From Nitrospiria bacterium (GTDB taxonomy: Bacteria > Nitrospirota > Nitrospiria > Nitrospirales > NS-4), in NCBI GenBank assembly GCA_041490525.1, contig JBGPTH010000001.1, forward strand, positions 44,115 to 108,114: 64,000 bases of DNA, given 5' to 3'. Below, one piece after another: positions 19,103 through 34,128 of the stretch; within the stretch, counting starts at the first letter, position 1, and each line of letters begins with the position of its first letter. A program made the translations under genes and the position numbers. A model generated the notes under the pieces. It was given only the letters and a program-made list of their open reading frames with translations. It did not search any database and was not told the origin of the DNA.

Positions 19103-19317
19103 GTTAGATCCAGCCGCGCACGTCAGGAAGAGCCCCGTGCTCCCGCATCGCGCACATCCTGGTATTAGAGGCGCGCTGGACGCACAAGTTCCGGTAGAGA
19201 TGTGCTCGCTTGACGGGCGCAGTTGAGGCTCGCCCTGTTGCTGTCGAAGAAGGTCGCAGATAAGAGTTTATTGGGTCGGACCTCATTTCCAGTGATCTGA
19301 TTTCTTGCCGCTCTGTT

Positions 19318-20223
19318 CTACTCCTCAATCGCCAACACTCGATGGAGCTGCCTCGCAACCTCTTCAATACCCACTTCCCAAATGACCGCCTTCTTGTTCG
19401 CCAGACTTGGGCTATATTTATATACTTCCTTTACATCGACACCATGCCAAACTGGTAAAACCACATTCGACCTTTCCAGTATTTCACGCGTGAACACTGA
19501 CTCAAATTCCGTTCTTGTCCACCCCGTGTTCGATAGAAAATTCGGAGTGACAACCAATATGCACCTCCGACACTCCTTAATACCCTTCCCAATACTTTCT
19601 CTGAGATTATCGCCAACCTTCAATGAGTACTCGTCAAACCACACAATGCATCCTGGTTACTTACTTAACTTGCCTGCTAAAGGTCACGCGATCAAATCCT
19701 TGTCACGCGAATCATGCGAAATGAATGCCGCTGGTTTCTCTAGGACAGAAACCTCTTTAGCCCATTCAGGGCCAAAATACTCGATACTCAGACCACGTTC
19801 TGTGCCGATTTTCTCAAGCGTTGCTAGTTCCTCTGCTGAAAGGGAATTCTCAGAATAAATAAAAATTCGCCCGCAGAATTTAAGGTTAGAAGCATTCAGC
19901 TCTTTGCTTCTAGGGAAAGCTGATTGAATGATAAATCCACCGCACCGAGATAAAACATCCTGGATAACGTTCTCGTGGATCGCTTCTAAGATATACCCAA
20001 GTGGGTTTGGTACTTTACCCATGTAGAACGCTAAATAGATCGCACCTGAAGAAAAATCTAAGTACATCCTTACCCGAACCTTTGTATTCCCTGTCTTAGA
20101 AGACAATTCAGTCGTTTGAGTTACGGTAACTGCAGGCCGCTGATGCAAGAAGAAATAATCCTTCACCGTTCCCATAACCGATGCTACCTTTGTTATTCCT
20201 AGGAACCCATGGGCTCTGACCAC
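19318..20223 (-). pseudogene. N-terminal unknown domain + C-terminal TIR domain protein, interrupted by two in-frame stops
   Basis: ORF 19684-20223 ends '...KPAAFISHDSRDKDLIA' and ORF 19318-19644 begins 'VWFDEYSLKVGDNLRESIGKGIKECRRCILVVTPNFLSNTGWTRTEFESV...LPVWHGV'. Read in the same frame, the gap gives LIA-TGA(19684-19686)-PLAGKLSK-TAA(19657-19659)-PGCI-VWFDEY. This is one continuous TIR domain ('FISH..D', 'VW.DE..L..GD', conserved Glu in 'TEFE'). The region is AT-rich. Confidence 0.75.
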
Positions 20224-21613: not shown

Positions 21614-24574
21614 TCATCCCCGGCCGCCGGGACCCGTTCCTTCCAACGCCTCCCCTTCCCGCGGGCGTCGCTGGGTCTTCAAGGGGTTGATGGGCAGATT
21701 CACGAAGAAGGTCGTTCCGCGGCCCACCGTGCTCTCCACTTCCACGTAGCCCCCGTGCTCCTGGACAATTTGATGGACGATGGTCAGGCCCAGACCCGTC
21801 CCCTCCCGCTCCTCGCTTTCATGCTTGGTGGAGTAGAACGGGTCGAAGATGTGGTCCAGATCATCCGGAGCGATGCCGCACCCGGTGTCCCCCACCTCGA
21901 TCTGGACCCAGGACTCGCCGGCAGGTTTGGCCAGCGGGCGCGTTTTCACGACCAGCAGGCCGCCGCCCTCTCCCATGGCATCCATGGCGTTGAGGACCAG
22001 GTTGAGAACCACCTGTTTGATCTGCTGGCGGTCCAGCATCACCCGGGGGAGGTTCCCGGCCAGGTCCTTCTCCAGAGTCACGGACTTGCTGGTGGCCTTG
22101 ACCCCGACAAAATACACGCAGGAGTCGACAAGTTCGTTGACGTTTTCTTCGGTCAACTTGGGTTCCATGTACCGGGCATAGTCCAGGATCTCCTGGATCA
22201 GTCGCTCGATACGAGCCACATCCTCAGACACCACCGAACCGAAGCGGCCGATGAAGTCGGGGTCGTCCTTGCGTTCCGGCGTGAGCTGGATGAACGTCTT
22301 GATCGAGGTCAGCGGGTTCCGCACCTCGTGGGCGAACCCCCCGGCGATGGTCTCCAAAGACCGGAGCCGATCGGTCCGTCGCATGAGCGTCTTTTGCCGC
22401 CGAACATCCTCATGCAGCAGCGCGTTATCCAGCGCGATTGCCAGATTCTGCCCGAGGGCGGAGAGCAGTTCAAGATCCTCCTCCGAGTACATCTCGCGGT
22501 TGGATTTATGCCCGAGGTTCAGGAACCCGATCACTACTTCCTTGTTCACGAGGGGAATGCACAGCTCCGATTCGATTTGGGACAGGGTATCCAGGATCCC
22601 TTTGAGCTTGACGATATCCTGGACGGGGACGGCGTCCATATTGTGTTCCAATTCCTCTCGCAGGATGGGGCCGCTCGTGTCGAACAGGAATTGGACGAAG
22701 GGAACCCTTGAGAGGATCTTGACCTCCCGCAGGCGCTTCTCATCGACTCCGTGCCCAGCCGCGAGGAAAAAATATCCCCCCTCCTTATCCAGGAGAAACA
22801 GAGAGACCTTCTTGATCCCCATCACCTTCGACAGGGTCTCCATGATCTTCGCGTTCAGGGCCTGCAGGTCCAGGATGGCGACCATGGCCTTACTGAATTC
22901 CGTGAGCGTCTCATACGCATCATAGCGTTTCTTGAACAGGGCCTTCCCGATCGCCTTTTCCATCTTTTTCTGGAGATTCGCCAGCAGGTCTGCAAGGAGA
23001 GAAAAGGTGGCGACGAGGATCCCGGCCAACACGTACTGAGTCGTCCCGGTAAACAGGAAGATGAGCAAGAGCGTGAGAAAATAAAACGAACAAATGAGCG
23101 CCAGGGGACGGGTATAGGGCAGAAACTTCCGATTGGTGAGGGTCAGGGAGATGTCCAGCAGCTGGAATTTCAAAATCGCATAGGTGACCAGGCAGGCCCA
23201 CAGGCTCACGAAGAGATAGCCCATGGGATAGGACTCGAACCCGTAATTCTGAACGAAGTCCAGGGTGGCGCCAAAGCCGAGGACGAAGGACCAGAAGATA
23301 TATTTCAGCCTCCTCGCTTCCAGGGGGGCGCTCTGTTCCCTGGCTTTATACCCCTGATGAAGCCGGTGCAACGACAACCCGCTCACCATCGCGAAATAGA
23401 TCAAAAACGAAGGATGCAGCACACCGGCTTTGGGATAGTGACCCCAGAAGTACGAATACTGGCCGTCCAGGAGATAGGTCGTCGGGACGAGCGACAGGAA
23501 CGCCGTACTGATCAGGTAACACGCCCAGATCAGCCGGTTCCCTTCCTTGAGTCGGAGCACACTGACGGTGAAATGGTAGAAAAAGGCCGGGATATAGACC
23601 ACGCCGACATACACAAATTTCCCCCAGAACAGGGCCTCCGCCGGCTCCTTGGAGGAATAGACCATGAAGAAGCCGAACAGCCAGAGGCACGCTCCCAAGC
23701 AGACCAGCCCAAAGGTAATGTGGGCCACCTCCCGTGGACTCTTGAACAGAACCCAGAGGCCGCAGGCGAAAACCAGGGTCCCGACCAAGAGAGGGGGCAT
23801 CGAAGCGAGCATGGCCCGCTCGCTGATCACGATGGCCAGGTACGCCGGCACAAAGATCAGGCCGAGGAGCACGACGTACGTCAATCCCTTGTGGAGCACC
23901 ACCGTGATGTCCATGAGACGGTAACGGACGATGGCGTACGTCATGATAATGGGATAAAACATGATGCCGAAATTTCCATACGGGTAGAAATCTATTCCGT
24001 AGATGGGCAGGTAATCCAGCGACCCCGTAAAATAGCCCAGGGAGACGGCTGCAAAGAAATATTTATACTGATTCCGTTTGAGGCCCGAGGCGAACCGGAA
24101 GAGCTTGAAGACCTGGTAATGCGCGTAGATGACAAGCCAAACCCACCATATGAAAAAGAGATGAAACAAGGCGGAGCCAGGAATCGAATAATAAAAGGAG
24201 GAGAACACGAAGCGGACCCCGCCGAAAAACCAGGGCGAGACCAGAATCAGAGGAAAGAACACCGCCCCGACCGCATAATTGACGAGGAGGAGCTTTCGTT
24301 GCCGCAGTTCGCAAAACGTCGTCACGAAGTGGAAGAAGAGAATGGGGATCCACACGACGCCGAATGCGAAGGCCACCCGCCACGCGAGGAGGGCCATGGC
24401 CTCGTCCCTCTCCAGGGCAATCCACATGCCGCCGAAGCCCCACACCGCGACCGACCCGGTAAACAGGAACCACAGCCTCTTCAGGTTGCTGGACCGGTCC
24501 GTGGAAAGGACAAAGATCCCCATGGCCAAGGAGCTGAGCCCGGTCAACAGCCCGGATAGCGCAAAGAGGTTCAT
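21614..24574 (-). CDS. sensor histidine kinase with tandem 7TM modules, GAF, HisKA, HATPase
   Basis: 986 aa. The first ~530 aa are polytopic, with two homologous modules ending 'YAIVRYRLMDITVVL' and 'YAILKFQLLDISLTL'. A GAF-like region, the H-box 'GGFAHEVRNPLTSI' and an ATPase domain ('DTGCGI', 'GTGLGL') follow. Confidence 0.85.
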   Translation of the reverse strand: MNLFALSGLLTGLSSLAMGIFVLSTDRSSNLKRLWFLFTGSVAVWGFGGMWIALERDEAMALLAWRVAFAFGVVWIPILFFHFVTTFCELRQRKLLLVNYAVGAVFFPLILVSPWFFGGVRFVFSSFYYSIPGSALFHLFFIWWVWLVIYAHYQVFKLFRFASGLKRNQYKYFFAAVSLGYFTGSLDYLPIYGIDFYPYGNFGIMFYPIIMTYAIVRYRLMDITVVLHKGLTYVVLLGLIFVPAYLAIVISERAMLASMPPLLVGTLVFACGLWVLFKSPREVAHITFGLVCLGACLWLFGFFMVYSSKEPAEALFWGKFVYVGVVYIPAFFYHFTVSVLRLKEGNRLIWACYLISTAFLSLVPTTYLLDGQYSYFWGHYPKAGVLHPSFLIYFAMVSGLSLHRLHQGYKAREQSAPLEARRLKYIFWSFVLGFGATLDFVQNYGFESYPMGYLFVSLWACLVTYAILKFQLLDISLTLTNRKFLPYTRPLALICSFYFLTLLLIFLFTGTTQYVLAGILVATFSLLADLLANLQKKMEKAIGKALFKKRYDAYETLTEFSKAMVAILDLQALNAKIMETLSKVMGIKKVSLFLLDKEGGYFFLAAGHGVDEKRLREVKILSRVPFVQFLFDTSGPILREELEHNMDAVPVQDIVKLKGILDTLSQIESELCIPLVNKEVVIGFLNLGHKSNREMYSEEDLELLSALGQNLAIALDNALLHEDVRRQKTLMRRTDRLRSLETIAGGFAHEVRNPLTSIKTFIQLTPERKDDPDFIGRFGSVVSEDVARIERLIQEILDYARYMEPKLTEENVNELVDSCVYFVGVKATSKSVTLEKDLAGNLPRVMLDRQQIKQVVLNLVLNAMDAMGEGGGLLVVKTRPLAKPAGESWVQIEVGDTGCGIAPDDLDHIFDPFYSTKHESEEREGTGLGLTIVHQIVQEHGGYVEVESTVGRGTTFFVNLPINPLKTQRRPREGEALEGTGPGGRG

Positions 24575-24685
24575 GAATCCTCTTCCAGATTTCGAACGAG
24601 GGAGGGTGTCAAGGGAGGGGCGCCGGTCGGCCCCCTACGGGCCTGGGTGAGCTGGAGGGAAAGATCAGCCGCAAGGAAATATTTA

Positions 24686-26035
24686 TTAGGCGAATGCATG
24701 CTCAGGGGCGTATGCCCAATAACATGCCTCCAACGCCCTGAACAGATACTCCAAACTCCGTTGGGCTGCATGCTCGACTTTTTGCTGCAGCTCGACGGAG
24801 GTCGCATGAAGCTTCATGACCTCGAGGGCCTGAAACGGGTGAAGGTCGTCATAGGCGGCATGGGCTTCCACCCAATAGTAGGCCTTCCTATCGAGAAACA
24901 CCCCGTCCTTGCCGTGATATTTGTCAAACCCTTTGACCATAAACGTGGCAATCCCTTGAGTCACCCCCTCGATGGCGTAATTCGTGGCAGCGATCGCCTC
25001 GACAAAGCTGCCTCGGTTGGTGACGGACCACAACCAATGCGTGAGGGCCTCAACGTCAGGAAGGATGGGGGTCGTAAACAGCTCCTCCCTGGGCACGCCA
25101 AATCCCATCGCCATGTCAATCCATTGATCGGCATGTCTCTTTTCAACACGCAGATTATCAATGAGAAAGGCCCGGGAGACCGGGTCGGGGGCTTTCGCCA
25201 GAAACGTGGCCATGAACTGAGGGAAGTACTCGATGAAGGGATAGAGCTGGATATTCCATCCCTTGACTTGCCTGAGGCTTAATTGACCTGTCGAGGTCTC
25301 TTGAAGCAATTTCGTCTGCCAGACGGCCTGCCGGTAGGGCTCGAGGCGTTGGTCCATCTCGACGACCCACACGGGATCGGGAGTGAACTTCCGGCCTCTT
25401 GTGGATTTCCTCCTCTGAAGCTTGTAGACGGAGCCTGCGGTCGGCATCGGCCCGGAGACGGAGAACACCGGACGAGGCCAGCCCCGCCGTTCAGGAGCCT
25501 CGCCGGCGATATGGGCCGCCTCGACCGCCAAATGGTCCTCGGACACACGAAGCCGGAGCACCGACTGTTCCAACGTGGAGGCATTTTCTTTGAGTTCCTG
25601 AAGCGCTGAGCTTAAAATCCTTTCTTCCCAGTTGCGCAAGCTGGCAAATTTGATACCGGCGGCATAGGGGCCGGGCGAGGCAGATCCATTTGTTGAGTGA
25701 CAAAAGACGACCTGTCCAGAAAGGTTCAGGTGACACACCTCACCAAACGAACATTGAAGGGCCAGCGGAGTGCCAACCCGCAATGCCGTGTCGCTCAGGA
25801 CCAGCAGGCCTCCTCGAGTGATATCCCGGGTACAGCCTGAGACATTTTTCTCTTGTATCTGAAGGAGGACCGGAATGCGAAGGGCGTCCCGGTCATAGCG
25901 GCGCCCTTGAGACGCAAGACGGCGACGCTCCGGTGAAAAGGCGATCATCTGAGTCCGCCGCTTCGCGATTCGCTGATCCTTACATTCGATCGAAGCGGGC
26001 ACCCTCCGCCGTTCGAAGAAGCTAGATATACTCAT
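24686..26035 (-). CDS. PilZ domain fused to a heme-oxygenase-like (iron-containing redox enzyme / CADD-PqqC-TenA fold) domain
   Basis: 449 aa. PilZ spans aa ~36-140 (nt ~25616-25930) with 'RRYDR' (RxxxR) and 'DITRGG' (DxSxxG-like). The aa ~215-445 region (nt ~24701-25393) is all-helical with carboxylate/His motifs 'PFIEYF', 'VEKRH', 'AIEGV' and 'VEAHAAYDDLH', spaced as in heme-oxygenase-like diiron enzymes. Confidence 0.6.
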   Translation of the reverse strand: MSISSFFERRRVPASIECKDQRIAKRRTQMIAFSPERRRLASQGRRYDRDALRIPVLLQIQEKNVSGCTRDITRGGLLVLSDTALRVGTPLALQCSFGEVCHLNLSGQVVFCHSTNGSASPGPYAAGIKFASLRNWEERILSSALQELKENASTLEQSVLRLRVSEDHLAVEAAHIAGEAPERRGWPRPVFSVSGPMPTAGSVYKLQRRKSTRGRKFTPDPVWVVEMDQRLEPYRQAVWQTKLLQETSTGQLSLRQVKGWNIQLYPFIEYFPQFMATFLAKAPDPVSRAFLIDNLRVEKRHADQWIDMAMGFGVPREELFTTPILPDVEALTHWLWSVTNRGSFVEAIAATNYAIEGVTQGIATFMVKGFDKYHGKDGVFLDRKAYYWVEAHAAYDDLHPFQALEVMKLHATSVELQQKVEHAAQRSLEYLFRALEACYWAYAPEHAFA

Positions 26036-26320: not shown

Positions 26321-29300
26321 TTACCTTTTTCGCTTGTCCAAATCCATCACCATGGCCGCAATGGCGCTGTGCGCGATGCCCAGCAAGATGGTGGCTTCCT
26401 CGAGGGTCAGGACTTCCTCGGGGTGGATCATGGGGTTGCGGTGCAGGAGGCGCACCTGTTCGAGCACCGCCAGGATTTTGGGGTCGGCATCGCTCCGCTT
26501 CAGGGCTCTGAGGTACGCCCCCCAGTCCCGCGAGACAGGCTTCGGACGGGTTTTCATCACGACCGTGTAGTACTCACGAATTACCGCCTCGACAGCCCTG
26601 AGAATGTGGATCCCCGCCGCAGTGGGAATGTCGAAGGCCAGGCATCGGCCTGCCTGGCGCAGATCGGCCAGTGCCTCGCCGGGAACGTTGTTCCTCACCG
26701 ACTCCGGAAGGAGGTGCTCCGCCCGCTCGATGAGGTCGGGCGTCGAATAGATGCCCTTCCGGGGGACCAGGTAGGCGTCGAGGGCCTGGGCCTCGGCGGA
26801 CAAGATCGTCTCGAACTCCCGGATGGCGTTGGTGAGGCTGAAGGCCATCCCATGGTCCAACTCCTTCTCCTGGCCTTGGGGTTCGCGGTCCTTGGGAAGA
26901 GCCCGTAAGAGTTTCGTGATCTCGGCCAGCAGTTTAAGCCCTGCCGATTTGCTCTTGACGAGCGGGACGGTGCGGTCGTTGAGGAACGACTTCAACTCGG
27001 TTTGGGCCTGGATCAGGGGCAGGAAGACCTCCCTCAGACTCGTTCCTGTTTTGATCTCGGCCAGCGGGTGCAGCGTGGCGCCCAACCGATAAAACAGATT
27101 CTCATCGACTCGTTGCATGCCCCCCCGCATCTCCGGAATGACGGCCGGTCCCCGATGTTGGGGCAGCCCTCCGCCTGTGTCAAGGGCGGGTTCACCCAGG
27201 AGGATGCGCTCGGGGCTGACCTGGACGATGCCGATCTCAGCCATCGCCTCCGGTTTCTCCACCACGGCCAGGTAGGCCTGGTTGGCGAACGTGGAATAAA
27301 TTCTGGGGGGCACCGCGCCGCTGGCGATCAGCAACTGCGCCAGTTCCTGCTGATCGAAGGCTCGAAACACCCCTTCCCCTTCAGCCCGTTTCATTTTCCC
27401 CCACACGAACAGCAACTGCCTGGCTTCCTCGGCGACCTCCGGCCGGTCCGCTTTCTGCATAAGACCCCGATAGATCGAAAAGAACTCGGCGTGGGGTTTC
27501 AGGGTGGTGATGACCATCCGTCCTTTCGGGGAGAGCACCCGCATGAGCTCCCCCAGCGTGTACGAAGGATCTTGTACATGGCCGATGACCAGGTTGCAGA
27601 TGATCCGATCGAACTGGTGGCTGCGAAAGGGCAGGGGCATGTTGAGGTCCCCGCACACCAGCGAGGCGTCCAGGACCGACGGGGGCTTGGATTCGGCAGG
27701 GACCTTGCCGCGAATGGCGGCGGCGGTCTGCGCAAGATTGAGCCGGGTCTGGATGAGCGCGCTCGAAAGAAAGTCCATCCCCACATAGCGGAGCCGTTCA
27801 GTAGGCAGAACGGGGGCCTTCCGGTGATGATACGCTTGATTGATCAAGAGGAACATGCCGAAATTTCCATGGCCGCATCCCGCATCCAGTATCCGCCCCC
27901 CCCGCTCAAGCCCCCCTGCCACCCGATAGAGGTGGTCCAGCAGTTGCCAGTACTCGGGCACATTCGCGATGGTCTGAAAGTGGTCTAGGCAGTCTCTCCA
28001 AAACTCCATCGCGTCGGCTTTCGTCAGGCGATGGCGGGCCCTGGCGCGGTCATCCTCGATCCGGATCTGGCGGCCGATCGCCCGCTGCGAGGGCTCCAGC
28101 ATGCGCCCTCCCTGGGGCAGGCGAACCCGTTCCCGGCAGCAGGCGACGAGCTGCCGGCAGAGGGCCCGCGCCTGTCTCGAACGTTCACGGAAGGGAGGGA
28201 GCACGACCGACACGTGGGGGGCGTCGATCGCTTTGGCCCGGAGGACGGCCTGGACCTCTTTTACCGATTCCAGGCGAACCCAGGGATCACGGTCTGCCGT
28301 GAAGAAGGCGACCGGGACCGCGACCTGTTCCGCATCCCGGAGGGTCGCTCGCAAATCGGAATATCCCTCCTTGATCGCATCGCCCAGGAAGCGGTCCGCA
28401 TCCACGTTCACCCCGAGGACATTGAGCACGCCGCGCCGAACCCCGCGCAGGAAGGTGATGATTAGGTCTTCCTGGTGGGCCGCCAACAAGGTGGCCTGAA
28501 GATCCACGACCCCGGCCAGAAGGATCGCCAGGTCCACCCAGGTTGTCTGCGAGACTCTCTTCAAAGCGACCCGTCCTGCCAGCCCCCTGGCCACGAGCAC
28601 GATGGGGCTGGTCGGCCACATGCCCTTCGCATAATCGATGACGGCGCCGAGGTCCTGGTTCATCCCGCTCAAGGTCGCATTCACCGCATCGCCGTCACTG
28701 TCGCCCGGGTGATTAGTGTGGTCATAGCGCAGAACCTGAAACCCATTGCTGGCCAAGTAATACGCCAGCGCGACGTACTCCCGCTTCGTCTCTCCGAACC
28801 CGGGAGCGATGATGACGAGCGGAGTACCGGGTCCGGCCCCCTCGGGGCAGTCGTGGGAGGCATCGATGCGCTGCCCGGCGGCATTCCGACATTCCCTCTG
28901 CCCGCTGGTGACCGTGACGGGCTCAGGTTCTTCGCCCAACCCTTCCCGCGACGCCAGGAAATGCCCCACCAGGGCGACGAACCTTCTCTGGCTCTCGTAG
29001 TTGGGGTGGAGAAACCGCACTCCAAAGCAGAACATGCCGGACGAGGCAAGCCCGCCGCGGTCCTGCCGGGCCGTCGGATCGGGAGCGCTCCAGACGATTT
29101 CTCCCACGACGCTCCGGTCGCCGGCCTTCTCCGGTTCGTTCACCGCCCGGGGGACCGATTGCTCCGGCCAAGGGAGATACACGAGCACACGGCGGCCAAG
29201 CAGGTCCGGCGGCATATCCATCCGCAGGCAGACGCCGGTGACGCCCAGGTTCACGGTCAGGGCCTTGAGCGGTCCGATGTCGGGGAATGCTTCGAACGGT

Positions 29301-29914
29301 TCAAAGCTGAGGGGAACGGCCAGATTGACCCGAGGCACCAGCCGACGCTCGGGCAAGTCCGTTTCTTCCGCGCCTGGAGCCTCCGGCTGGCTGGCCTCGG
29401 GAGCGACGGTGACCGGTCCGGGAGCGACGGCGTCCGGGAGAAGGGTCGTGGTCTCGGTGGGGCTCAGGACCCCGACGATCTTGACGGTAATGGCCCGCTC
29501 TCGGAGTCCTTCCAGGAGAGAGGCGAGGATCCGGGTCTTCGTCGAATCAAGAGGTTCAAACTCCACGGCAATGCCCAGTCTTGGTTTCAGGCTGGCAGCC
29601 CCCTCCGTCCCGGGGATCTCGCGGAGACTCCGAACCCTCCCTCGAATCTCCAACACCCCCGCCTCCGTCAGGAGACCCACTTGGACGGGTTGATTGTCAG
29701 TGGCCGGTCCGGCGCCATCGAAAGCCATGAAGACCCCGCCCCCGCTGATGGTCAGCGCGGTCCCGTGCCAGGAGGTTTCACGAAGGCTCAATTGGGCCTC
29801 CAGGCGAACTTCCAGGCGAGGCCACCGACGTCGTTCGGGACGCGGTCCGGGTATTTCAATTTTCGGCATAAGCGACCATCGCGGGCACACACCAAACGTT
29901 GGGAATGAGCGCAC
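26321..29914 (-). CDS. giant multidomain protein: PilZ - PilZ - LuxD-like alpha/beta fold (no nucleophile Ser) - class I SAM methyltransferase - unknown region - HEPN-like C-terminus
   Basis: 1,197-aa ORF from GTG 29914; the first ATG at 29869 gives 'MPKIEIPGP'. PilZ-1 spans aa 26-125 ('RRWPR', 'TISGGG'). PilZ-2 spans aa 188-310 ('RLVPR', 'NLGVTG'). The alpha/beta domain spans aa 340-590 ('LVIIAPGFGETKREYVALAYYLASNGFQVLRYDH', elbow 'VARGLAGRVAL'). The methyltransferase spans aa 640-885 ('ILDAGCGHGNFG', 'YVGMDF', 'LSPKGRMVITT'). The aa 1075-1190 helical domain carries 'HRNPMIH' (Rx4H). Confidence 0.7.
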   Translation of the reverse strand: MRSFPTFGVCPRWSLMPKIEIPGPRPERRRWPRLEVRLEAQLSLRETSWHGTALTISGGGVFMAFDGAGPATDNQPVQVGLLTEAGVLEIRGRVRSLREIPGTEGAASLKPRLGIAVEFEPLDSTKTRILASLLEGLRERAITVKIVGVLSPTETTTLLPDAVAPGPVTVAPEASQPEAPGAEETDLPERRLVPRVNLAVPLSFEPFEAFPDIGPLKALTVNLGVTGVCLRMDMPPDLLGRRVLVYLPWPEQSVPRAVNEPEKAGDRSVVGEIVWSAPDPTARQDRGGLASSGMFCFGVRFLHPNYESQRRFVALVGHFLASREGLGEEPEPVTVTSGQRECRNAAGQRIDASHDCPEGAGPGTPLVIIAPGFGETKREYVALAYYLASNGFQVLRYDHTNHPGDSDGDAVNATLSGMNQDLGAVIDYAKGMWPTSPIVLVARGLAGRVALKRVSQTTWVDLAILLAGVVDLQATLLAAHQEDLIITFLRGVRRGVLNVLGVNVDADRFLGDAIKEGYSDLRATLRDAEQVAVPVAFFTADRDPWVRLESVKEVQAVLRAKAIDAPHVSVVLPPFRERSRQARALCRQLVACCRERVRLPQGGRMLEPSQRAIGRQIRIEDDRARARHRLTKADAMEFWRDCLDHFQTIANVPEYWQLLDHLYRVAGGLERGGRILDAGCGHGNFGMFLLINQAYHHRKAPVLPTERLRYVGMDFLSSALIQTRLNLAQTAAAIRGKVPAESKPPSVLDASLVCGDLNMPLPFRSHQFDRIICNLVIGHVQDPSYTLGELMRVLSPKGRMVITTLKPHAEFFSIYRGLMQKADRPEVAEEARQLLFVWGKMKRAEGEGVFRAFDQQELAQLLIASGAVPPRIYSTFANQAYLAVVEKPEAMAEIGIVQVSPERILLGEPALDTGGGLPQHRGPAVIPEMRGGMQRVDENLFYRLGATLHPLAEIKTGTSLREVFLPLIQAQTELKSFLNDRTVPLVKSKSAGLKLLAEITKLLRALPKDREPQGQEKELDHGMAFSLTNAIREFETILSAEAQALDAYLVPRKGIYSTPDLIERAEHLLPESVRNNVPGEALADLRQAGRCLAFDIPTAAGIHILRAVEAVIREYYTVVMKTRPKPVSRDWGAYLRALKRSDADPKILAVLEQVRLLHRNPMIHPEEVLTLEEATILLGIAHSAIAAMVMDLDKRKR

Positions 29915-30351: not shown

Positions 30352-31389
30352 ATGATTACTGATTCCGCGAAGTTGAGCATCCCCGACGAGCGCAAAGAGT
30401 CACTGGCCCGACAAGAGTCTCCCAAGCCCACCATCCTCATCGTAGAGGATGAGGCCGGCCCGCGAGAGGCCCTCAAGATGATTCTCCGGCCCTTCTTCAA
30501 TCTCTATGCGGTGGATAACGCCGAGGTCGCCTTGCAAATGCTCAAAGAGCGGCCGATCGACCTGGTCACCCTGGACCTGAAACTCCCGGCCCTGCAAGGA
30601 ACCGACCTATTACGGGAAATCAAGCGGGAGCATGAATTTGTGGAAGTGGTCATCATCACCGGGTATGGGAGCCTGCAGTCGGCCTTGGAAGGAATCCGGT
30701 GCGGGGCGGCGGCCTACCTGCTCAAGCCCTTCAACGTCACGGAACTGATCGACGTTATCAACAAGGCGCTCGAGAAAAAAAATCATCTCGACGGCTTGCG
30801 CGACACCCTCAGGACGTTCGGGAGCCTGTGGGCCACGGAACTGGATTCGACGACGGCCTGTAAGAATCTCGGGAGACTGCTCGAGGCCAAGGACCAGGAA
30901 CTGGTCCGCCATTCCCGCCGCGTCGCTTTCTACGCCTCCCTGCTGGCGGAGCACTTGGATCTGACCTCCGAGGACCGGGTGGCCCTGCAGATCGGTGCCT
31001 TTTTGCATGACATCGGGAAGGTCGGGATCGACGACCGTATCCTGATGAACCCTAGCAAGTTGAGCGACCGGGAATCCGAACTGGTCAAATGCCACCCCGA
31101 CATCGGCGCACGCATGGTGAGCACGCTGCCCTTGCCGGAAGCGGTGGCCCGGATCATCCGCCACCACCATGAGCAGTACGACGGCTCGGGCTATCCGGAC
31201 GGGTTGCAAGGCGAGGGGATCCCCTTTCTCGCCAGGATTGTCTGCCTGGCCAACGTGTTCGATAAGCTGATCACCAACCCTCCCTCCCAAGGCGCCCTGA
31301 CCATCGAAGAAGCCAGGCAATACGTGCGGCAACAGGCCGGGATCCTGTTTGACCCGAGGCTCGCTGAGCTGTTCGCGCAGGTCGTGTGA
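30352..31389 (+). CDS. response regulator with HD-GYP c-di-GMP phosphodiesterase domain (RpfG-like)
   Basis: Receiver ('ILIVEDE', 'IDLVTLDLKLP') followed by HD-GYP ('HDIGKVGI', 'HHHEQYDGSGYPDGL'). Confidence 0.9.
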   Translation: MITDSAKLSIPDERKESLARQESPKPTILIVEDEAGPREALKMILRPFFNLYAVDNAEVALQMLKERPIDLVTLDLKLPALQGTDLLREIKREHEFVEVVIITGYGSLQSALEGIRCGAAAYLLKPFNVTELIDVINKALEKKNHLDGLRDTLRTFGSLWATELDSTTACKNLGRLLEAKDQELVRHSRRVAFYASLLAEHLDLTSEDRVALQIGAFLHDIGKVGIDDRILMNPSKLSDRESELVKCHPDIGARMVSTLPLPEAVARIIRHHHEQYDGSGYPDGLQGEGIPFLARIVCLANVFDKLITNPPSQGALTIEEARQYVRQQAGILFDPRLAELFAQVV

Positions 31390-31611: not shown

Positions 31612-34128
31612 ATGAAAGGCCGACACGGCGACGCGAAGCGCTCTCCCGGTCCTCGCAAGGGCCGGATGGCAAAAAGCCGAACTCCTACCAAAGACCAGCT
31701 CCTCAAAGAACTGGCCGCCCTTCGAAAGCGGATGGCGGCCCTGGCCGCGTCGGAAACCCAGCAGGCCGAAGCCGCTCTCCGGACGGCCAAGGAGGAATGG
31801 GAACAGTCCTTCAACGCGCTGACGGACGATGTCTGCATCCTCGACCTTGCGGGTCTGATCCTCAGGGCCAACAAGGCCATGCGGGACCGGTTCGAGCACC
31901 TGCACGGAAACCTCATGGGCCTGGACTATCGCCTGGTGTACTACGGCACGGAGGCCCCGGACTACCATCCTCCGTGGGAGGCGGTCCTCTCGGGCGCCAG
32001 CTCCGTCGTGGTCGAACATTGGTTTCCGAAACTGGACGGGTGGTTTCAGGTCTCCTGCTATCCCCTCTACGATGTCGGGGGGAGACAATGGGGCGCCGTC
32101 TCGGTGGTCAAGGATATTACCGAGCGCAAGCGGATCGAAGAGGCCCTGCGCGACATCGCGCAACGGGCCCCCGCAGCCGGAAGCGCGGCCTTCTTCCGGT
32201 CGCTGGTCAAGCACCTGGCGAAGGCCTTGGAGGTCGATTACGCCTTCATCGCCGAGTTCACCGGCGGCGCGGGAGAGGACGTCCGCACGGTCGCGGTCTG
32301 TGCGCACGGCGAGATCAAAGAGAACTTCGTGTATCACCTGCCGGAGACCCCGGGCGCCAAGATCGTGAGCAGCAATCTGTGCTGCTACGCCAGTGGCGTC
32401 CGCCAGCAGTTTCCCAATGACCCCCTGCTGGCCGAATGGGAAGTTGAAAGTTTTATCGGCAGCCCGCTCTTCAACTCGGCCGGCCGGTCGGTGGGATTGG
32501 TCGTGGCGATGGACTCCGCACCCTTGCGCAACCGCCAGCTCGCGGAATCCATCCTGGGCGTGTTCACCGTGCGCGCGTCGGTCGAGCTGGAGCGCAAGCG
32601 GGCGGAGGAGGCCCTGCGCGACAGCGAGGAGCGGTACCGCGCCATTGCGGAAAACACGTACGATCTGATCTCGGAGACGAGCGAGACGGGCCAGTACCTC
32701 TACCTGAGCCCGAACCACAAGGATGTGCTGGGGTACGAGCCGCGCGAACTGCAGGGGCAATCCATCTTCGAGCGCGTCCATCCGGACGACCTTCCCGGGG
32801 TCCAGACGGAATTCGAGCACGGCATGAGAACCCTGAAACCGGGCCAGGCCGAATTCCGGTTGCGCACCAAGACCGGAGAGTGGCGCTGGTTTGACGGCAC
32901 CGGCAAGGCGTTTCGGACGGCGACCGGCGAGGTTCGGGCGGTCGTCGTGTCCCGGGACATCACCGACCGCAAACAGATCGAAGAGGAGCGCCTCCGCGCC
33001 AGCAAACTGGAATCCCTCGGGGTCTTCGCCGGCGGGATCGCCCATGATTTTAACAATCTCCTCGCCGCCATCATCGGCAATATCTCCCTGGCCAAGCTGT
33101 CGGTCGAACCCGGCAATGAGTTGCACAAAAGCCTGGCGGAGGCGGAAAAAGCGTCCCTCAAAGCCAAGGGGCTCACCCAGCAACTGCTCACCTTCGCCAA
33201 GGGCGGGGCGCCGGTGAAGAGGCCGACGTCGATCGGAGACTTACTGAGAGAGTCGGCCGGCTTTGCGCTGCGAGGGTCCAATGTCCGGCCCGAATTTTCG
33301 CTGCCGGACAATCTCTGGCCGGTGGAAGTCGATGAGGGCCAGATGAGCCAGGTCATCCATAACCTGGTGCTCAACGCGCAGCAGGCCATGCCGGAGGGGG
33401 GCATCATCACGATCGGGGGCGAGAACCTCACGGTCGGCGCCGACCGGGCGGAGCAGGCGCTCCCGCTCCGGGAAGGCAAGTACGTCAAGCTCGCCATCCG
33501 GGACCAGGGCAGCGGGATCGCCAAAGAACACCTGCCCAAGATCTTTGATCCGTATTTCACCACCAAACAGAAAGGCAGCGGCCTGGGCCTGGCGACCTCC
33601 TACTCCATCATCAAGAACCACGAGGGCCACATCTCGGTCGACTCGGAGGTGGGCGTGGGTACCACCTTCGTCCTCTATCTTCCGGCCTTCCCCCTCCCGC
33701 TCCCGGCTCCGGTGGAGATCGAGGAAAAACCGCGGACCGGCCGGGGGAAGATCCTGATCATGGATGACGAGGAACCCATTCGAGACCTGCTGGTGCGGAT
33801 CATGACCCATTGCGGGTACGAGGCCGAGACGGCCCGCGACGGCGCCGAAACGATCGCCCTGTATAAACAGGCCAAAGACGCCGGGCGCCCCTTCGAAGCC
33901 GTGATCATGGATTTGACCATTCCGGGCGGGATGGGCGGCAAGGACACGATCGCCAAACTGATCGAAATCGATTCTCAGGTGAAAGCCATCGTCTCGAGCG
34001 GGTACGCCCACGATCCGGTCATGGCCAACTACAAGCAATACGGGTTCAGGGGGGTGGTCGCCAAGCCCTATAAAATCACCGAACTGAGTGAAGTGCTTGA
34101 AACCGTCATCCTGGGCCGGGCCCAATAG
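31612..34128 (+). CDS. PAS-GAF-PAS hybrid sensor histidine kinase with C-terminal receiver
   Basis: 838 aa. PAS-like repeats, a GAF-like block, the H-box 'GGIAHDFNNLLAAI', an ATPase domain ('DQGSGI', 'GSGLGL') and a receiver ('ILIMDDE', 'FEAVIMDLTIPGG'). The start could be ATG 31666 instead. Confidence 0.85.
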   Translation: MKGRHGDAKRSPGPRKGRMAKSRTPTKDQLLKELAALRKRMAALAASETQQAEAALRTAKEEWEQSFNALTDDVCILDLAGLILRANKAMRDRFEHLHGNLMGLDYRLVYYGTEAPDYHPPWEAVLSGASSVVVEHWFPKLDGWFQVSCYPLYDVGGRQWGAVSVVKDITERKRIEEALRDIAQRAPAAGSAAFFRSLVKHLAKALEVDYAFIAEFTGGAGEDVRTVAVCAHGEIKENFVYHLPETPGAKIVSSNLCCYASGVRQQFPNDPLLAEWEVESFIGSPLFNSAGRSVGLVVAMDSAPLRNRQLAESILGVFTVRASVELERKRAEEALRDSEERYRAIAENTYDLISETSETGQYLYLSPNHKDVLGYEPRELQGQSIFERVHPDDLPGVQTEFEHGMRTLKPGQAEFRLRTKTGEWRWFDGTGKAFRTATGEVRAVVVSRDITDRKQIEEERLRASKLESLGVFAGGIAHDFNNLLAAIIGNISLAKLSVEPGNELHKSLAEAEKASLKAKGLTQQLLTFAKGGAPVKRPTSIGDLLRESAGFALRGSNVRPEFSLPDNLWPVEVDEGQMSQVIHNLVLNAQQAMPEGGIITIGGENLTVGADRAEQALPLREGKYVKLAIRDQGSGIAKEHLPKIFDPYFTTKQKGSGLGLATSYSIIKNHEGHISVDSEVGVGTTFVLYLPAFPLPLPAPVEIEEKPRTGRGKILIMDDEEPIRDLLVRIMTHCGYEAETARDGAETIALYKQAKDAGRPFEAVIMDLTIPGGMGGKDTIAKLIEIDSQVKAIVSSGYAHDPVMANYKQYGFRGVVAKPYKITELSEVLETVILGRAQ

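What the first reader, a model, noticed from the sequence alone, without database searches (positions are those of the whole stretch)
24686..26035. PilZ domain fused to a heme-oxygenase-like putative diiron enzyme
The N-terminal PilZ domain ('RRYDR...DITRGG') is joined by a ~70-aa linker to an all-helical domain. That domain carries carboxylate/histidine motifs ('PFIEYF', 'VEKRH' = ExxH, 'AIEGV', 'VEAHAAYDDLH'). Their spacing recalls the heme-oxygenase-like diiron oxidase/oxygenase superfamily (CADD, UndA, SznF-type, also the PqqC/TenA fold). Members of this fold perform unusual oxidations such as fatty-acid decarboxylation, N-oxygenation and C-C cleavage. A c-di-GMP receptor fused directly to such an enzyme would be direct second-messenger control of an oxidative biosynthetic step. 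The gene lies between the giant PilZ protein and the 7TM-GAF kinase on the same strand.
Basis: inference. Interest (0 to 1): 0.7.

Follow-up and report, generated by a model that had tools for sequence, protein, structure and literature searches.

The report
c-di-GMP receptor fused to UndA-like enzyme
This Nitrospirota gene joins a c-di-GMP-sensing PilZ module to a two-iron enzyme related to UndA, which turns fatty acids into terminal alkenes; the same module sits on many other lipid enzymes, nearly always beside one type of membrane sensor kinase, suggesting unreported second-messenger control of lipid or hydrocarbon chemistry.

Summary
ORF 24686-26035 (-) encodes 449 aa. Residues 1-178 are an Arg-rich leader plus a canonical PilZ barrel (RRYDR, DITRGG). 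Residues 179-213 are a disordered linker. Residues 214-449 are a heme-oxygenase-like diiron (HDO) domain.

The closest solved relative is UndA (E 2e-31, 32% identity, Foldseek TM 0.8). All six UndA metal ligands are invariant in 120/120 homologues. TenA, PqqC and CADD are far weaker matches.

The fusion is a conserved family: more than 120 clusters at 90% identity and 21 species genomes, almost all Nitrospirota. Wherever flanking DNA exists, a HisKA_7TM-GAF histidine kinase lies next to it. A PilZ-less member of the clade lacks the kinase.

Beyond the finding, the same ~175-aa PilZ cassette (30-47% identical) is fused to ketoacyl synthases, an alpha-oxoamine-synthase-like enzyme, acyl-CoA dehydrogenase, HMG-CoA reductase, aldehyde dehydrogenase and LuxD-like/methyltransferase proteins. 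For five enzyme types a 7TM kinase is encoded beside or close to them. An RR-HD-GYP c-di-GMP phosphodiesterase is often nearby, and is present in this window.

Best reading: a local c-di-GMP module gating a fatty-acid-oxidising, probably alkene-forming, enzyme. Substrate, product and c-di-GMP binding are inferred. I found no literature on it.

The parts
24686..26035 (-). Complete gene for the PilZ-cassette/UndA-like HDO fusion protein (449 aa plus stop)
   Evidence: ORF. RBS. Domains. A 100% identical protein occurs in a JGI metagenome, and there are more than 120 homologous clusters.
25502..26035 (-). N-terminal PilZ cassette, aa 1-178: Arg-rich leader (FFERRR, KRR, ERRRLASQGRRYDR), six-strand PilZ barrel, and a conserved tail (helix 135-150, helix 152-157, strand 159-164, helix 168-178)
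   Evidence: AF2 pLDDT is above 90 for residues 50-165. The cassette aligns end to end, at 27-46% identity, with the N-termini of other enzyme fusions.
25613..25906 (-). PilZ domain proper (aa 44-141)
   Evidence: Pfam PF07238 at 34.2 bits against a cut-off of 22.5. The profile hits MotI/DgrA 5vx6 (E 7e-6) and the BcsA PilZ domain. Foldseek best hits are c-di-GMP-bound PilZ domains of YcgR, 4xrn, Alg44, MotI, BcsA and MapZ.
25889..25903 (-). RxxxR c-di-GMP motif (R45-R-Y-D-R49)
   Evidence: R45 is present in 90/120 and R49 in 97/120 of the fusion family. Both are invariant in the 21-sequence cassette alignment across enzyme types.
25808..25825 (-). [D/N]hSxxG c-di-GMP motif, here D71-I-T-R-G-G76 (Thr in place of Ser)
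   Evidence: D/N in 103/120, S/T in 94/120 (S 77, T 17) and G76 in 114/120. The motif definition comes from 10.1101/814665.
25397..25501 (-). Disordered, poorly conserved interdomain linker (aa 179-213)
   Evidence: pLDDT is below 50 for residues 178-213. No conservation.
24686..25396 (-). UndA-like heme-oxygenase-like diiron oxidase domain (aa 214-449)
   Evidence: phmmer E 2.4e-31 to UndA 6p5q/4wwj. Foldseek TMt 0.79-0.83 to UndA/PSPTO1738. 32% identical to Pf-5 UndA.
25133..25144 (-). Core helix 1 ligands E298-x-x-H301 (= UndA E101/H104)
   Evidence: Aligned to UndA VELNH. Invariant in 120/120.
24968..24970 (-). Core helix 2 ligand E356 (= UndA E159) in NYAIEG
   Evidence: 120/120.
24839..24862 (-). 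Core helix 3 ligands H392, D396 and H399 (= UndA H194/D198/H201). W388, just upstream, corresponds to UndA W190
   Evidence: 120/120. W388 is invariant. The role of W190 in UndA is described in PMC13108848.
21614..24574 (-). Partner sensor kinase: two HisKA_7TM repeats, GAF, HisKA and HATPase (986 aa), starting 111 bp downstream on the same strand
   Evidence: Pfam. A homologue lies adjacent to the fusion in every relative with flanking DNA.
26321..29914 (-). Upstream accessory protein (1197 aa): two PilZ domains, a LuxD-like acyltransferase domain, a SAM methyltransferase and a DUF4145-like C-terminus. In this window the acyltransferase has lost its nucleophile Ser and catalytic His
   Evidence: Pfam/NCBIfam. 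Alignment to LuxD 1tht. Present in only a subset of relatives.
30352..31389 (+). Response regulator with an HD-GYP domain (putative c-di-GMP phosphodiesterase), divergently transcribed from the accessory gene
   Evidence: Pfam Response_reg plus HD_5 (E 2e-35). The HD...GYP motif is seen. Orthologues at 49-68% identity lie beside the module in L003, L010/L071, L014 and L070.
31612..34128 (+). PAS-PAS-HisKA-HATPase-REC hybrid kinase following the RR-HD-GYP gene
   Evidence: Pfam. The same gene follows RR-HD-GYP in L070 and L071.

Best explanation
The gene encodes a two-part protein.

**C-terminal enzyme.** It is an UndA-type heme-oxygenase-like diiron oxidase. It most likely binds a free fatty-acid-type carboxylate on Fe1, activates O2 at a 3-His/3-carboxylate diiron site and carries out an oxidative C-C cleavage. 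The default product is a terminal alkene plus CO2.

[quoted passage not shown] It thereby switches the enzyme's activity, or its association with partners.

**The module.** The protein works with the adjacent 7TM-GAF histidine kinase and the nearby response-regulator HD-GYP phosphodiesterase. The membrane kinase senses a membrane, lipid or hydrophobic cue. It signals to the phosphodiesterase, which sets local c-di-GMP. The PilZ cassette reads that level and passes it to the enzyme.

**Shown here:** domain identities, ligand and motif conservation, the fusion as a conserved Nitrospirota family, the kinase adjacency, and the cassette's reuse on other lipid enzymes.

**Inferred:** c-di-GMP binding, the direction of regulation, the kinase-to-HD-GYP phosphotransfer, and the substrate and product.
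For: **Enzyme.** UndA is the best sequence match (E 2.4e-31) and the best fold match. The six ligand positions and the W190 equivalent are invariant. UndA is an established diiron fatty-acid decarboxylase with a 3H/3C site, and its substrate carboxylate sits on Fe1 (PMC13108848). The window's domain is as far from Pf-5 UndA (32%) as the Myxococcus homologues are (33-39%). Those homologues are counted in the UndA family in the literature.

**PilZ.** The domain passes Pfam's gathering score. The profile hits c-di-GMP-binding MotI and BcsA with both motifs aligned. The fold matches c-di-GMP-bound PilZ structures. The motifs are conserved in 75-95% of the family and invariant across cassette types.

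**Module.**
- Of 21 Nitrospirota species loci carrying the HDO clade (20 of them with the PilZ part), 18 have the 7TM-GAF kinase adjacent. Two of the other three end at the contig edge. The third (L024) lacks both the PilZ cassette and the kinase.
- Gene gaps of 11-47 bp, or a 4-bp overlap, indicate operons.
- An RR-HD-GYP lies next to the module in the window, L003, L010/L071, L014 and L070.

**Lipid context.**
- The same cassette is fused to KAS I/II, KAS III, alpha-oxoamine-synthase-like, acyl-CoA dehydrogenase, HMG-CoA reductase, aldehyde dehydrogenase and LuxD-like/methyltransferase enzymes.
- The UndA-like slot is replaced by PilZ-aldehyde dehydrogenase in L070.
- A FadL/TodX hydrophobic-compound channel follows the kinase in Nitrospira sp. 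Nam74.
Against: - No biochemical data exist for any family member.
- Identity to UndA is only 32%, and HDO enzymes change reaction type at such distances.
- The window protein has Thr, not Ser, in the second PilZ motif. About 10-25% of family members lack one motif residue.
- No diguanylate cyclase is encoded in the window.
- The RR-HD-GYP is seen beside the module in only about 5 of about 20 loci within 10 kb.
- In this window the LuxD-like domain, which might have supplied free fatty acid, has lost its Ser and His.
- AF2 gives no confident interdomain contact (pTM 0.57).
Confidence: 0.55

Rival explanations
1. Signal synthase and receptor pair. The UndA-like enzyme, and in other genomes the swapped-in enzymes, makes a hydrophobic fatty-acid-derived signal. 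The 7TM domain of the adjacent kinase is its receptor, and c-di-GMP gates signal output through the PilZ cassette. This would be a quorum-sensing-like circuit. It extends the best explanation rather than excluding it.
For: - Enzyme-kinase adjacency is strict across five enzyme types.
- The alpha-oxoamine-synthase-like variant sits next to a multi-TM kinase (L073). This mirrors CqsA/CqsS and LqsA/LqsS (my own knowledge).
- A fatty-acid-derived signal, a kinase and an RR-HD-GYP together mirror RpfF/RpfC/RpfG (my own knowledge).
- 1-Undecene made by UndA is a reported intraspecific aerial signal affecting biofilm maturation in P. fluorescens MFE01 (PMC10614000).
- A FadL/TodX channel follows the kinase in L069.
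- Kinase 7TM regions are 45-70% identical in UndA and ALDH loci, but only 28-33% identical in KAS, AOS and HMGR loci. Cassettes stay at about 39-47% identity throughout.
Against: - There is no evidence for a ligand of HisKA_7TM domains.
- HMG-CoA reductase and KAS are unlikely dedicated signal synthases.
- The 7TM divergence may simply reflect phylogenetic distance, or the single versus double 7TM architectures.
- Adjacency is equally explained by the kinase regulating c-di-GMP or gene expression.
Confidence: 0.25
2. Membrane-lipid homeostasis circuit. The 7TM kinase senses a bilayer property. The PilZ-cassette enzymes (KAS, KAS III, HMGR, ACAD, ALDH, UndA-like, methyltransferase) remodel membrane lipids or hydrocarbons under c-di-GMP control. 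The UndA-like member makes an alkene, or an oxidised acyl chain, that stays in the membrane.
For: - Every enzyme partner found belongs to acyl-lipid or isoprenoid metabolism.
- The kinase sensor is entirely membrane-embedded, with 7 or 14 TM helices.
- Hopanoid-type radical SAM/DUF3463 genes and dxs/ispG lie beside some loci.
Against: - Known UndA products are volatile C9-C13 alkenes, not membrane constituents.
- One genome usually shows only one or two cassette enzymes next to the kinase, not a full remodelling set.
- No direct evidence exists.
Confidence: 0.2
3. The HDO domain catalyses a different oxidation from fatty-acid decarboxylation, while still being PilZ-linked. Candidates are desaturation, hydroxylation or N-oxygenation, cleavage of a hydroxy-acid or amino-acid substrate, or a self-sacrificing CADD-type reaction.
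For: - Identity to UndA is only 32%.
- Only about a dozen HDOs are characterised, and their reactions are very diverse (PMC13108848).
- There is a weak NCBIfam hit to the CADD family (65.9 bits).
- The fusion clade is a separate branch: 53-77% identical within itself and 27-40% identical to all stand-alone homologues.
Against: - UndA is a much better match than CADD, PqqC or BesC: E 1e-31 against 1e-6, and BesC is not detected by sequence.
- The CADD hit is far below its cut-off of 200 bits.
- The genomic company is acyl-lipid enzymes, not amino-acid or folate genes.
Confidence: 0.3
4. The PilZ cassette is chiefly a docking adaptor to the kinase, in the manner of HapZ-SagS, or a degenerate PilZ that does not bind c-di-GMP. 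On this view it does not act as an allosteric switch on the enzyme.
For: - The cassette and the kinase are the constant pair, while the enzyme varies.
- The one clade member without a cassette also lacks the kinase.
- The cassette has extra conserved elements beyond PilZ: an Arg-rich leader and a helical tail.
- PilZ adaptors that act on histidine kinases are known: HapZ acts with SagS (PMC12564702).
- The window has Thr at the Ser position.
Against: - RxxxR and G76 are invariant across cassette types, and D/N and S/T are largely kept. That pattern is not expected for a PilZ that has lost ligand binding (10.1101/814665).
- Docking and c-di-GMP binding are not mutually exclusive.
Confidence: 0.2
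5. The helical domain is a non-metal TenA thiaminase or PqqC-type protein, and the resemblance to diiron enzymes is superficial.
For: Pfam TENA_THI-4 hit (E 2e-11). The JGI automatic name is 'PQQ biosynthesis protein C'.
Against: - PqqC scores 30 bits against a cut-off of 240.
- TenA and PqqC structures match at only 11-22% identity, with much weaker E-values than UndA.
- The full 3H/3C ligand set is invariant.
Confidence: 0.03

Closest known systems
UndA (Pseudomonas fluorescens Pf-5 PFL_4321; PDB 4WWJ, 4WX0, 6P5Q), a heme-oxygenase-like diiron fatty-acid decarboxylase that makes 1-undecene
   Same: - Seven-helix HDO fold (Foldseek TMt 0.79-0.83).
- E-x-x-H, E and H-x3-D-x2-H ligand set at aligned positions.
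- W190 equivalent.
- It is the best sequence match in the PDB (E 2.4e-31).
   Different: - Only 32% identical, and a separate clade.
- It carries a ~213-aa N-terminal extension: the PilZ cassette plus a linker.
- It is encoded in an operon-like arrangement with a 7TM kinase, whereas stand-alone UndA homologues in my loci have no such kinase.
- Substrate and product are untested.
PilZ-domain enzyme fusions such as cellulose synthase BcsA and the alginate co-polymerase Alg44
   Same: A canonical PilZ barrel with RxxxR and [D/N]hSxxG is covalently attached to a biosynthetic protein, so that c-di-GMP acts directly on the enzyme.
   Different: - Those are membrane exopolysaccharide synthases with the PilZ domain C-terminal or internal.
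- Here PilZ is N-terminal and has its own Arg-rich leader and helical tail.
- It is attached to a soluble O2-activating metalloenzyme, and in paralogous families to fatty-acid and isoprenoid enzymes.
HapZ-SagS (P. aeruginosa), a PilZ adaptor acting on a histidine kinase
   Same: A PilZ protein is functionally tied to a sensor kinase of a two-component system.
   Different: HapZ is a single-domain adaptor. Here PilZ is part of an enzyme, and the kinase link rests on gene adjacency only.
Rpf/DSF signalling (RpfF synthase, RpfC kinase, RpfG RR-HD-GYP) and the CqsA/CqsS and PhcB/PhcS systems. The comparison is from my own knowledge
   Same: - A fatty-acid-derived small-molecule enzyme is encoded with a multi-TM sensor kinase and, as in Rpf, a response regulator with an HD-GYP c-di-GMP phosphodiesterase.
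- A paralogous cassette protein carries an alpha-oxoamine-synthase-like domain, the enzyme class of CqsA.
   Different: - There is no homology between the synthases, or between the sensor domains, and those systems.
- There the synthase has no c-di-GMP receptor.
- Signal production and sensing are not shown here.
CADD/CT610 pABA synthase and PqqC (other heme-oxygenase-fold proteins)
   Same: Same fold. CADD shares the 3H/3C site.
   Different: The matches are much weaker (E 1e-6 to 1e-7, 16-22% identity). NCBIfam scores are far below the cut-offs: 65.9 against 200, and 30.4 against 240.

Membership tests
[quoted passage not shown] | Seven-helix heme-oxygenase-like bundle | tested here: met
   AF2 pLDDT is above 90 over residues 220-441. 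Foldseek gives probability 1.0 to UndA, CADD, PqqC, TenA and BesC.
[quoted passage not shown] | 3-His/3-carboxylate primary ligand set on core helices 1-3 | tested here: met
   E298, H301, E356, H392, D396 and H399 align with UndA E101, H104, E159, H194, D198 and H201. They are invariant in 120/120 homologues. The definition comes from PMC13108848.
[quoted passage not shown] | Binds two Fe (or Fe/Mn) ions and activates O2 | not testable with these tools
   Needs metal analysis, Mossbauer spectroscopy or stopped-flow kinetics.
UndA family (fatty-acid decarboxylase forming 1-alkenes) | Closest characterised relative is UndA, at family-level similarity | tested here: met
   E 2.4e-31 and 32% identity over 220 aa. 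This is comparable to the Myxococcus homologues' 33-39% identity to Pf-5 UndA.
UndA family (fatty-acid decarboxylase forming 1-alkenes) | Trp equivalent to W190 near the cluster | tested here: met
   W388 aligns with W190 and is invariant.
UndA family (fatty-acid decarboxylase forming 1-alkenes) | Hydrophobic channel that holds a C10-C14 acyl chain, with the carboxylate on Fe1 | not tested
UndA family (fatty-acid decarboxylase forming 1-alkenes) | Converts free fatty acids to 1-alkenes plus CO2 | not testable with these tools
   Needs an enzyme assay or headspace GC-MS.
Canonical PilZ c-di-GMP receptor domain | Six-strand beta-barrel followed by a long alpha-helix | tested here: met
   Strands 55-60, 63-72, 76-81, 90-97, 101-114 and 124-131, then helix 135-150. 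Foldseek best hits are c-di-GMP-bound PilZ domains.
Canonical PilZ c-di-GMP receptor domain | RxxxR motif in the N-terminal loop | tested here: met
   R45-RYD-R49. Invariant in the cassette alignment and present in 75-81% of the fusion family.
Canonical PilZ c-di-GMP receptor domain | [D/N]hSxxG motif | tested here: inconclusive
   The window has D71-I-T73-R-G-G76, with Thr replacing Ser. The family has S in 77, T in 17 and G in 17 of 120. D/N is in 103/120 and G76 in 114/120.
Canonical PilZ c-di-GMP receptor domain | Binds c-di-GMP | not testable with these tools
   Needs DRaCALA, ITC or MST.
TenA/thiaminase II and PqqC (non-metal members of the fold) | Scores as a member with curated models, and lacks the metal ligand set | tested here: not met
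   PqqC TIGR02111 scores 30.4 bits against a cut-off of 240. TenA structures match at 11-16% identity. The full 3H/3C set is present. The catalytic Cys of TenA was not mapped.
CADD family (TIGR04305; self-sacrificing pABA synthase) | Curated family score | tested here: not met
   65.9 bits against a cut-off of 200. PDB CADD E 1.6e-6, against 2.4e-31 for UndA.

The most novel reading that the evidence does not exclude
Nitrospirota carry an undescribed signalling system built from three parts. The first is a portable ~175-aa PilZ cassette (Arg-rich leader, PilZ barrel, helical tail). The second is a dedicated 7TM-GAF histidine kinase. The third, often present, is an RR-HD-GYP phosphodiesterase. 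Together they place a swappable set of lipid, hydrocarbon and isoprenoid enzymes under direct c-di-GMP control: UndA-like oxidase, aldehyde dehydrogenase, KAS I/II/III, alpha-oxoamine synthase, acyl-CoA dehydrogenase, HMG-CoA reductase and LuxD-like/methyltransferase proteins. In its boldest form, each enzyme makes a lipid-derived signal, here a terminal alkene, that the neighbouring 7TM kinase senses. That would be a family of synthase-receptor pairs for cell-cell communication in nitrifiers.
Probability: 0.25. Interest if true: 0.88.

Novelty: new variant of a known kind. Interest (0 to 1): 0.72.

Why it matters
- **A regulated HDO enzyme.** HDO enzymes are a young superfamily with only about a dozen characterised members. 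None that I found is reported to carry a regulatory receptor domain.
- **A new kind of PilZ target.** PilZ-enzyme fusions are known mainly for exopolysaccharide synthases. A c-di-GMP receptor welded to an O2-activating diiron enzyme would extend direct second-messenger control to oxidative lipid and hydrocarbon chemistry.
- **A broader pattern.** The same cassette sits on a series of fatty-acid and isoprenoid enzymes. This suggests that c-di-GMP directly governs lipid metabolism, or lipid-derived signalling, in Nitrospirota. That phylum includes the main nitrite oxidisers of soils and wastewater biofilms.
- **Testable handles.** The finding offers one soluble protein, one ligand and one volatile product. 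It also gives a candidate input for the uncharacterised HisKA_7TM sensor domain, and a possible switchable alkene-forming enzyme for biotechnology.

Tried and rejected
1. **Sigma-54 promoters.** I searched upstream of the fusion, accessory, kinase and HD-GYP genes in the window, and upstream of 16 relatives (TGGCAC-N5-TTGCW, up to 3 mismatches, GG/GC fixed). Nothing convincing turned up, although some loci encode an NtrC-type regulator.
2. **Riboswitch or other Rfam RNA.** Only a tRNA at 8753-8824 was found in the window.
3. **Diguanylate cyclase.** A motif scan of all ORFs of at least 120 aa in the window found no GGDEF motif.
4. **Word-indexed search with the cassette alone (aa 30-183).** It returned nothing, a limit of the tool's sensitivity. 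The exhaustive representative search had already found the cassette relatives.
5. **LuxD-like domain as a fatty-acid supplier.** The idea was that the upstream LuxD-like domain is an acyl-ACP thioesterase feeding the UndA-like enzyme. For this window it is weakened, because Ser114 is Gly and the catalytic His position is Phe. Ser and His are kept in L002 and L010.
6. **AFDB fold search.** The library was not available.
7. **Zhang et al. 2019 UndA paper (PMC6800569).** It is not held. Ligand numbering was derived from the PDB chain alignment, with an offset of 2.
8. **TenA, PqqC or CADD identity.** Rejected on scores.
9. **Literature.** No paper holds both 'heme oxygenase-like' and 'PilZ'. 'PilZ' with 'UndA' gave only author-name noise. 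PilZ surveys and a 2025 effector review do not mention such fusions.
Full report
**1. The observation**

The ORF 24686-26035 on the minus strand encodes 449 aa. A GGAGGA ribosome-binding site lies 6 nt upstream of the ATG. The first residues (MSISSFFERRR...) match a conserved leader in relatives, so the annotated start is right.

Pfam finds PilZ at aa 44-141 (34.2 bits, gathering score 22.5). It also finds Haem_oxygenas_2 at 260-429 (47.2 bits, gathering score 28.9) and TENA_THI-4 at 242-351.
- Upstream on the same strand is a 1197-aa protein with two PilZ domains.
- Downstream is a 986-aa HisKA_7TM(x2)-GAF-HisKA-HATPase kinase.

**2. The C-terminal domain**

A phmmer search of all PDB sequences gives UndA as by far the best match: 6p5q, 4wwj and the P. 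syringae orthologue 3oql, E about 3e-31, covering aa 220-439. PqqC and CADD follow at E 1e-6 to 1e-7, and TenA at 0.06.

An AlphaFold2 model built on 68 homologues is confident for both domains, with pLDDT above 90 for residues 50-165 and 220-441. Foldseek against the PDB again ranks UndA/PSPTO1738 first (TM 0.79-0.83 on the target, E 1e-12). CADD, PqqC, TenA and BesC come after.

In the alignment, UndA's ligands fall on query residues as follows:
- E101 and H104 on E298 and H301
- E159 on E356
- H194, D198 and H201 on H392, D396 and H399

The PDB chain index is offset by 2 from native UndA numbering. All six positions are invariant in 120 of 120 family members. W388, the equivalent of UndA W190, is invariant too.

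A 2026 review defines this 3-His/3-carboxylate set on three core helices as the hallmark of diiron HDOs. It describes UndA as the substrate-triggered decarboxylase of C10-C14 fatty acids, with the carboxylate bound to Fe1 (PMC13108848; chain-length range from PMC12344977).

NCBIfam's CADD and PqqC models score far below their cut-offs: 65.9 against 200 and 30.4 against 240. So the domain is an HDO of the UndA branch, not a TenA, PqqC or CADD protein.

It is 32% identical to Pf-5 UndA. That distance is like the one separating Myxococcus UndA-like proteins from Pf-5 UndA (33-39%). The fusion proteins form their own clade: 53-77% identical to one another and 27-40% identical to all stand-alone homologues. 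The literature counts Myxococcus homologues in the UndA family (PMC11776017).

**3. The N-terminal part**

The model shows six strands followed by a long helix, which is the canonical PilZ topology (10.1101/814665).

R45-x3-R49 and D71-I-T-R-G-G76 fit RxxxR and [D/N]hSxxG, with Thr for Ser. Across 120 homologues the counts are:
- R45: 90
- R49: 97
- D/N71: 103
- S/T73: 94
- G76: 114

A profile of the module hits the c-di-GMP receptor MotI/DgrA (5vx6, E 7e-6) and the BcsA PilZ domain, with both motifs aligned. A separate model of aa 1-182 has c-di-GMP-bound PilZ domains as its best PDB fold matches: YcgR, 4xrn, Alg44, MotI, BcsA, MapZ and MrkH.

Residues 135-178 form a conserved helix-helix-strand-helix tail. 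Only about 179-213 is a disordered linker.

**4. A conserved family with a fixed partner**

The word-indexed search returned more than 120 full-length clusters at 45-91% identity, nearly all carrying PilZ plus the HDO domains. The source names given are Nitrospirales, Nitrospiraceae, Thermodesulfobacteriota and 'Deltaproteobacteria' MAGs.

A scan of one genome per species found 21 loci of this clade, 20 of which carry the PilZ part. Twenty are labelled Nitrospirota and one Deltaproteobacteria MAG. It also found about 43 stand-alone UndA-like genes in Rhodanobacter, Myxococcus, Acidovorax and some Nitrospirales.

tblastn with the window's neighbours shows a close homologue of the 7TM-GAF kinase directly beside the fusion in 18 of the 21 loci. 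The other three are:
- L011 and L021, which end at the contig edge.
- L024, which encodes a member of the same HDO clade without the PilZ cassette and has no such kinase in 12 kb.

None of the stand-alone UndA loci has the 7TM kinase.

Gene gaps are short: 111 bp in the window, 47 bp in L003 and 11 bp in L071. The kinase family itself seems confined to this lineage. There are about 170 hits, with Nitrospirota names for all but one partial sequence labelled Candidatus Brocadi..., and both single-7TM and double-7TM forms occur.

**5. The rest of the neighbourhood**

The large PilZ-LuxD-like-methyltransferase protein is present in only some loci. In the window its LuxD-like domain has Gly at the position of the LuxD nucleophile Ser114, and Phe where relatives have the catalytic His. 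Ser and His are kept in L002 and L010. So in this genome it is probably not an active acyltransferase. Its methyltransferase motif I (LDAGCGHG) is intact.

A response regulator with an intact HD-GYP domain (30352-31389, +) and a PAS hybrid kinase (31612-34128, +) lie divergently from it. Orthologues of both follow the kinase in L070 and L071. RR-HD-GYP is also found in L003 and L014. L003 and L071 add an NtrC-type regulator.

In Nitrospira sp. Nam74 there are two PilZ-UndA paralogues, and a FadL/TodX-type outer-membrane channel for hydrophobic compounds follows the kinase directly.

**6. The unexpected part: a shared cassette**

The exhaustive search of 1.84 billion representatives found many proteins of 530-1070 aa that match only aa 1-180 of the query, at 33-50% identity. 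Pfam shows their C-terminal parts to be:
- beta-ketoacyl synthase I/II
- KAS III
- class I/II aminotransferase, named glycine C-acetyltransferase by JGI; I read this as the alpha-oxoamine synthase class
- acyl-CoA dehydrogenase
- HMG-CoA reductase
- aldehyde dehydrogenase
- LuxD-like acyltransferase plus methyltransferase
- domains with no Pfam match

The N-terminal 175 residues align end to end. They share the leader F-Y-E-R-R-K...D-R-R...E-R-R-R-L-A-S-Q-x-R-x-x-x-R, the PilZ motifs, and the tail G-I-K-F-S-x-I-R-x-x-E-Q-K-I-L...K-S-L-L-x-I-x-V. R45, R49 and G76 are invariant.

Their contexts repeat the pattern:

| Locus | Gene order |
|---|---|
| L072 (Nitrospirota) | PilZ-KAS, ACP-PilZ-thioesterase, 7TM-like GAF kinase |
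| L073 | PilZ-aminotransferase, HisKA_7TM-GAF kinase |
| L074 | PilZ-HMG-CoA reductase, HisKA_7TM-GAF kinase |
| L070 | PilZ-LuxD-MT, PilZ-aldehyde dehydrogenase (4-bp overlap with the kinase), 7TM kinase, RR-HD-GYP, PAS hybrid kinase |
| L075 | PilZ-acyl-CoA dehydrogenase, a PilZ-methyltransferase protein, a hybrid kinase with no recognisable 7TM part |

So the constant elements are the cassette and the kinase. The enzyme is interchangeable, and it always comes from acyl-lipid or isoprenoid metabolism.

**7. How it most likely works**

Shown here:
- a canonical PilZ with its ligand-binding motifs
- an UndA-type diiron site
- a fixed kinase partner
- a frequently linked HD-GYP phosphodiesterase
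- a lipid-enzyme theme

Inferred: the 7TM-GAF kinase senses a membrane or hydrophobic cue and controls local c-di-GMP, plausibly through the RR-HD-GYP. The PilZ cassette reads c-di-GMP and switches the attached enzyme, by allostery or by docking. The enzyme oxidatively decarboxylates a free fatty acid to a terminal alkene. I put about 0.55 on this composite.

Extensions and rivals:
- The product is itself the kinase's ligand, a synthase-receptor pair. From my own knowledge this resembles CqsA/CqsS, RpfF/RpfC/RpfG and PhcB/PhcS. There is also a precedent for 1-undecene as an intraspecific signal affecting biofilm maturation (PMC10614000).
- The module is a membrane-lipid homeostasis circuit.
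- The HDO domain performs a different oxidation.
- The cassette is mainly a kinase adaptor, as HapZ is for SagS.

Weak points:
- There is no biochemistry.
- Identity to UndA is 32%.
- The substrate channel was not examined.
- The window has Thr for Ser in the second PilZ motif.
- No diguanylate cyclase is encoded nearby.
- The HD-GYP gene is adjacent in only a minority of loci.

**8. Novelty**

- No held paper contains both 'heme oxygenase-like' and 'PilZ'.
- 'PilZ' with 'UndA' gives only author-name noise.
- The PilZ structural survey lists fusions to signalling domains, Alg44 and cellulose synthase only.
- The PilZ sequence-network study left multidomain proteins aside.
- A 2025 effector review mentions no fatty-acid or metabolic-enzyme targets.
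- The 2026 HDO review mentions no fusions.
- Database names are generic: 'iron-containing redox enzyme family protein', 'PilZ domain-containing protein', 'PQQ biosynthesis protein C'.

The parts are known kinds. The combination and the cassette-kinase system appear undescribed, so I rate it a new variant of a known kind.

**9. Dead ends**

- No sigma-54 promoters.
- No riboswitch.
- The cassette-only word search failed.
- The AFDB library was unavailable.
- The UndA structure paper is not held.

Noticed in passing
window 25502-26035 (-); proteins P0256, P0262, P0268, P0270, P0274, P0276, P0279, P0296, P0300, P0311, P0322, P0324, P0344, P0359, P0386: The ~175-aa N-terminal PilZ cassette is shared at 30-47% identity. 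Its partners are KAS I/II, KAS III, alpha-oxoamine-synthase-like, acyl-CoA dehydrogenase, HMG-CoA reductase, aldehyde dehydrogenase and LuxD-like/methyltransferase proteins. It is a portable regulatory module on lipid and isoprenoid enzymes.
   Followed up: partly
L070 5800-10928; L072 8001-14851; L073 218-3875; L074 8381-12666: Four other cassette-enzyme types (ALDH, KAS, aminotransferase, HMGR) are each followed by a 7TM-GAF histidine kinase: directly in three loci, and after an ACP-PilZ-thioesterase gene in L072. In L070 PilZ-ALDH occupies exactly the slot held by PilZ-UndA in the window.
   Followed up: partly
window 26321-29914 (-), aa ~365-590: The LuxD-like acyltransferase domain of the 1197-aa neighbour has Gly at the LuxD Ser114 nucleophile position, and Phe where relatives keep the catalytic His. 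Relatives vary at the Ser position: Ser in L002 and L010, Gly in L006, Asn in L021. It is probably a dead or repurposed domain here.
   Followed up: yes
window 25903-26035 (-), aa 1-45: The low-confidence N-terminal leader carries three conserved Arg-rich motifs: F-x-E-R-R, D/Q-R-R and E-R-R-R-L-A-S-Q. They lie ahead of the RxxxR motif and are conserved across all cassette types. Their function is unknown. Extra c-di-GMP contacts, membrane binding or kinase binding are possibilities.
   Followed up: no
L069 (Nitrospira sp. Nam74, OZ224220.1) 3018-11668: There are two PilZ-UndA paralogues, one divergent from the 7TM kinase. An extra GAF-HK-REC hybrid kinase lies between them. A FadL/TodX-type outer-membrane channel gene follows the kinase, and transposase genes lie nearby.
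   Followed up: partly
L024 2114-3076: This member of the fusion's HDO clade (50% identical) has no PilZ cassette, and there is no 7TM kinase anywhere in its 12-kb contig. It is a single natural control linking the cassette to the kinase.
   Followed up: partly
window 21614-24574 (-) and P0121-P0240: The partner kinase exists in two forms: about 960-975 aa with two HisKA_7TM repeats (as in the window) and about 716-720 aa with one. The family has only about 170 detectable members, with Nitrospirota names for all but one partial sequence labelled Candidatus Brocadi....
   Followed up: no
window 22001-26000 and 18001-20000: G+C falls to 0.565-0.572 over the kinase and PilZ-UndA genes, and again around 18-20 kb. 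Most of the window is at 0.61-0.68. This may reflect membrane-protein composition or foreign origin.
   Followed up: no
window 19684-20223 (-): This 179-aa ORF has no Pfam match. Its C-terminus reads ...AAFISHDSRDKDLIA, which resembles the start of a bacterial TIR-type domain, and is then cut by a stop. It may be a gene remnant or a frameshift.
   Followed up: no
L072 10289-11329: A single 346-aa protein combines an acyl-carrier (PP-binding) domain, a PilZ domain and a 4HBT thioesterase domain. It sits right after PilZ-KAS, so a second PilZ sits inside a carrier-thioesterase protein.
   Followed up: no
window 12943-18740 (+) and 35344-37392 (-): The surroundings are housekeeping genes. They include a sulfite/nitrite reductase-TusA fusion, PAPS reductase, CysN/CysC, a TrpD-like gene at 20524-21546, RNase III and FabF. 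The module is therefore chromosomal, not on an obvious mobile element.
   Followed up: no
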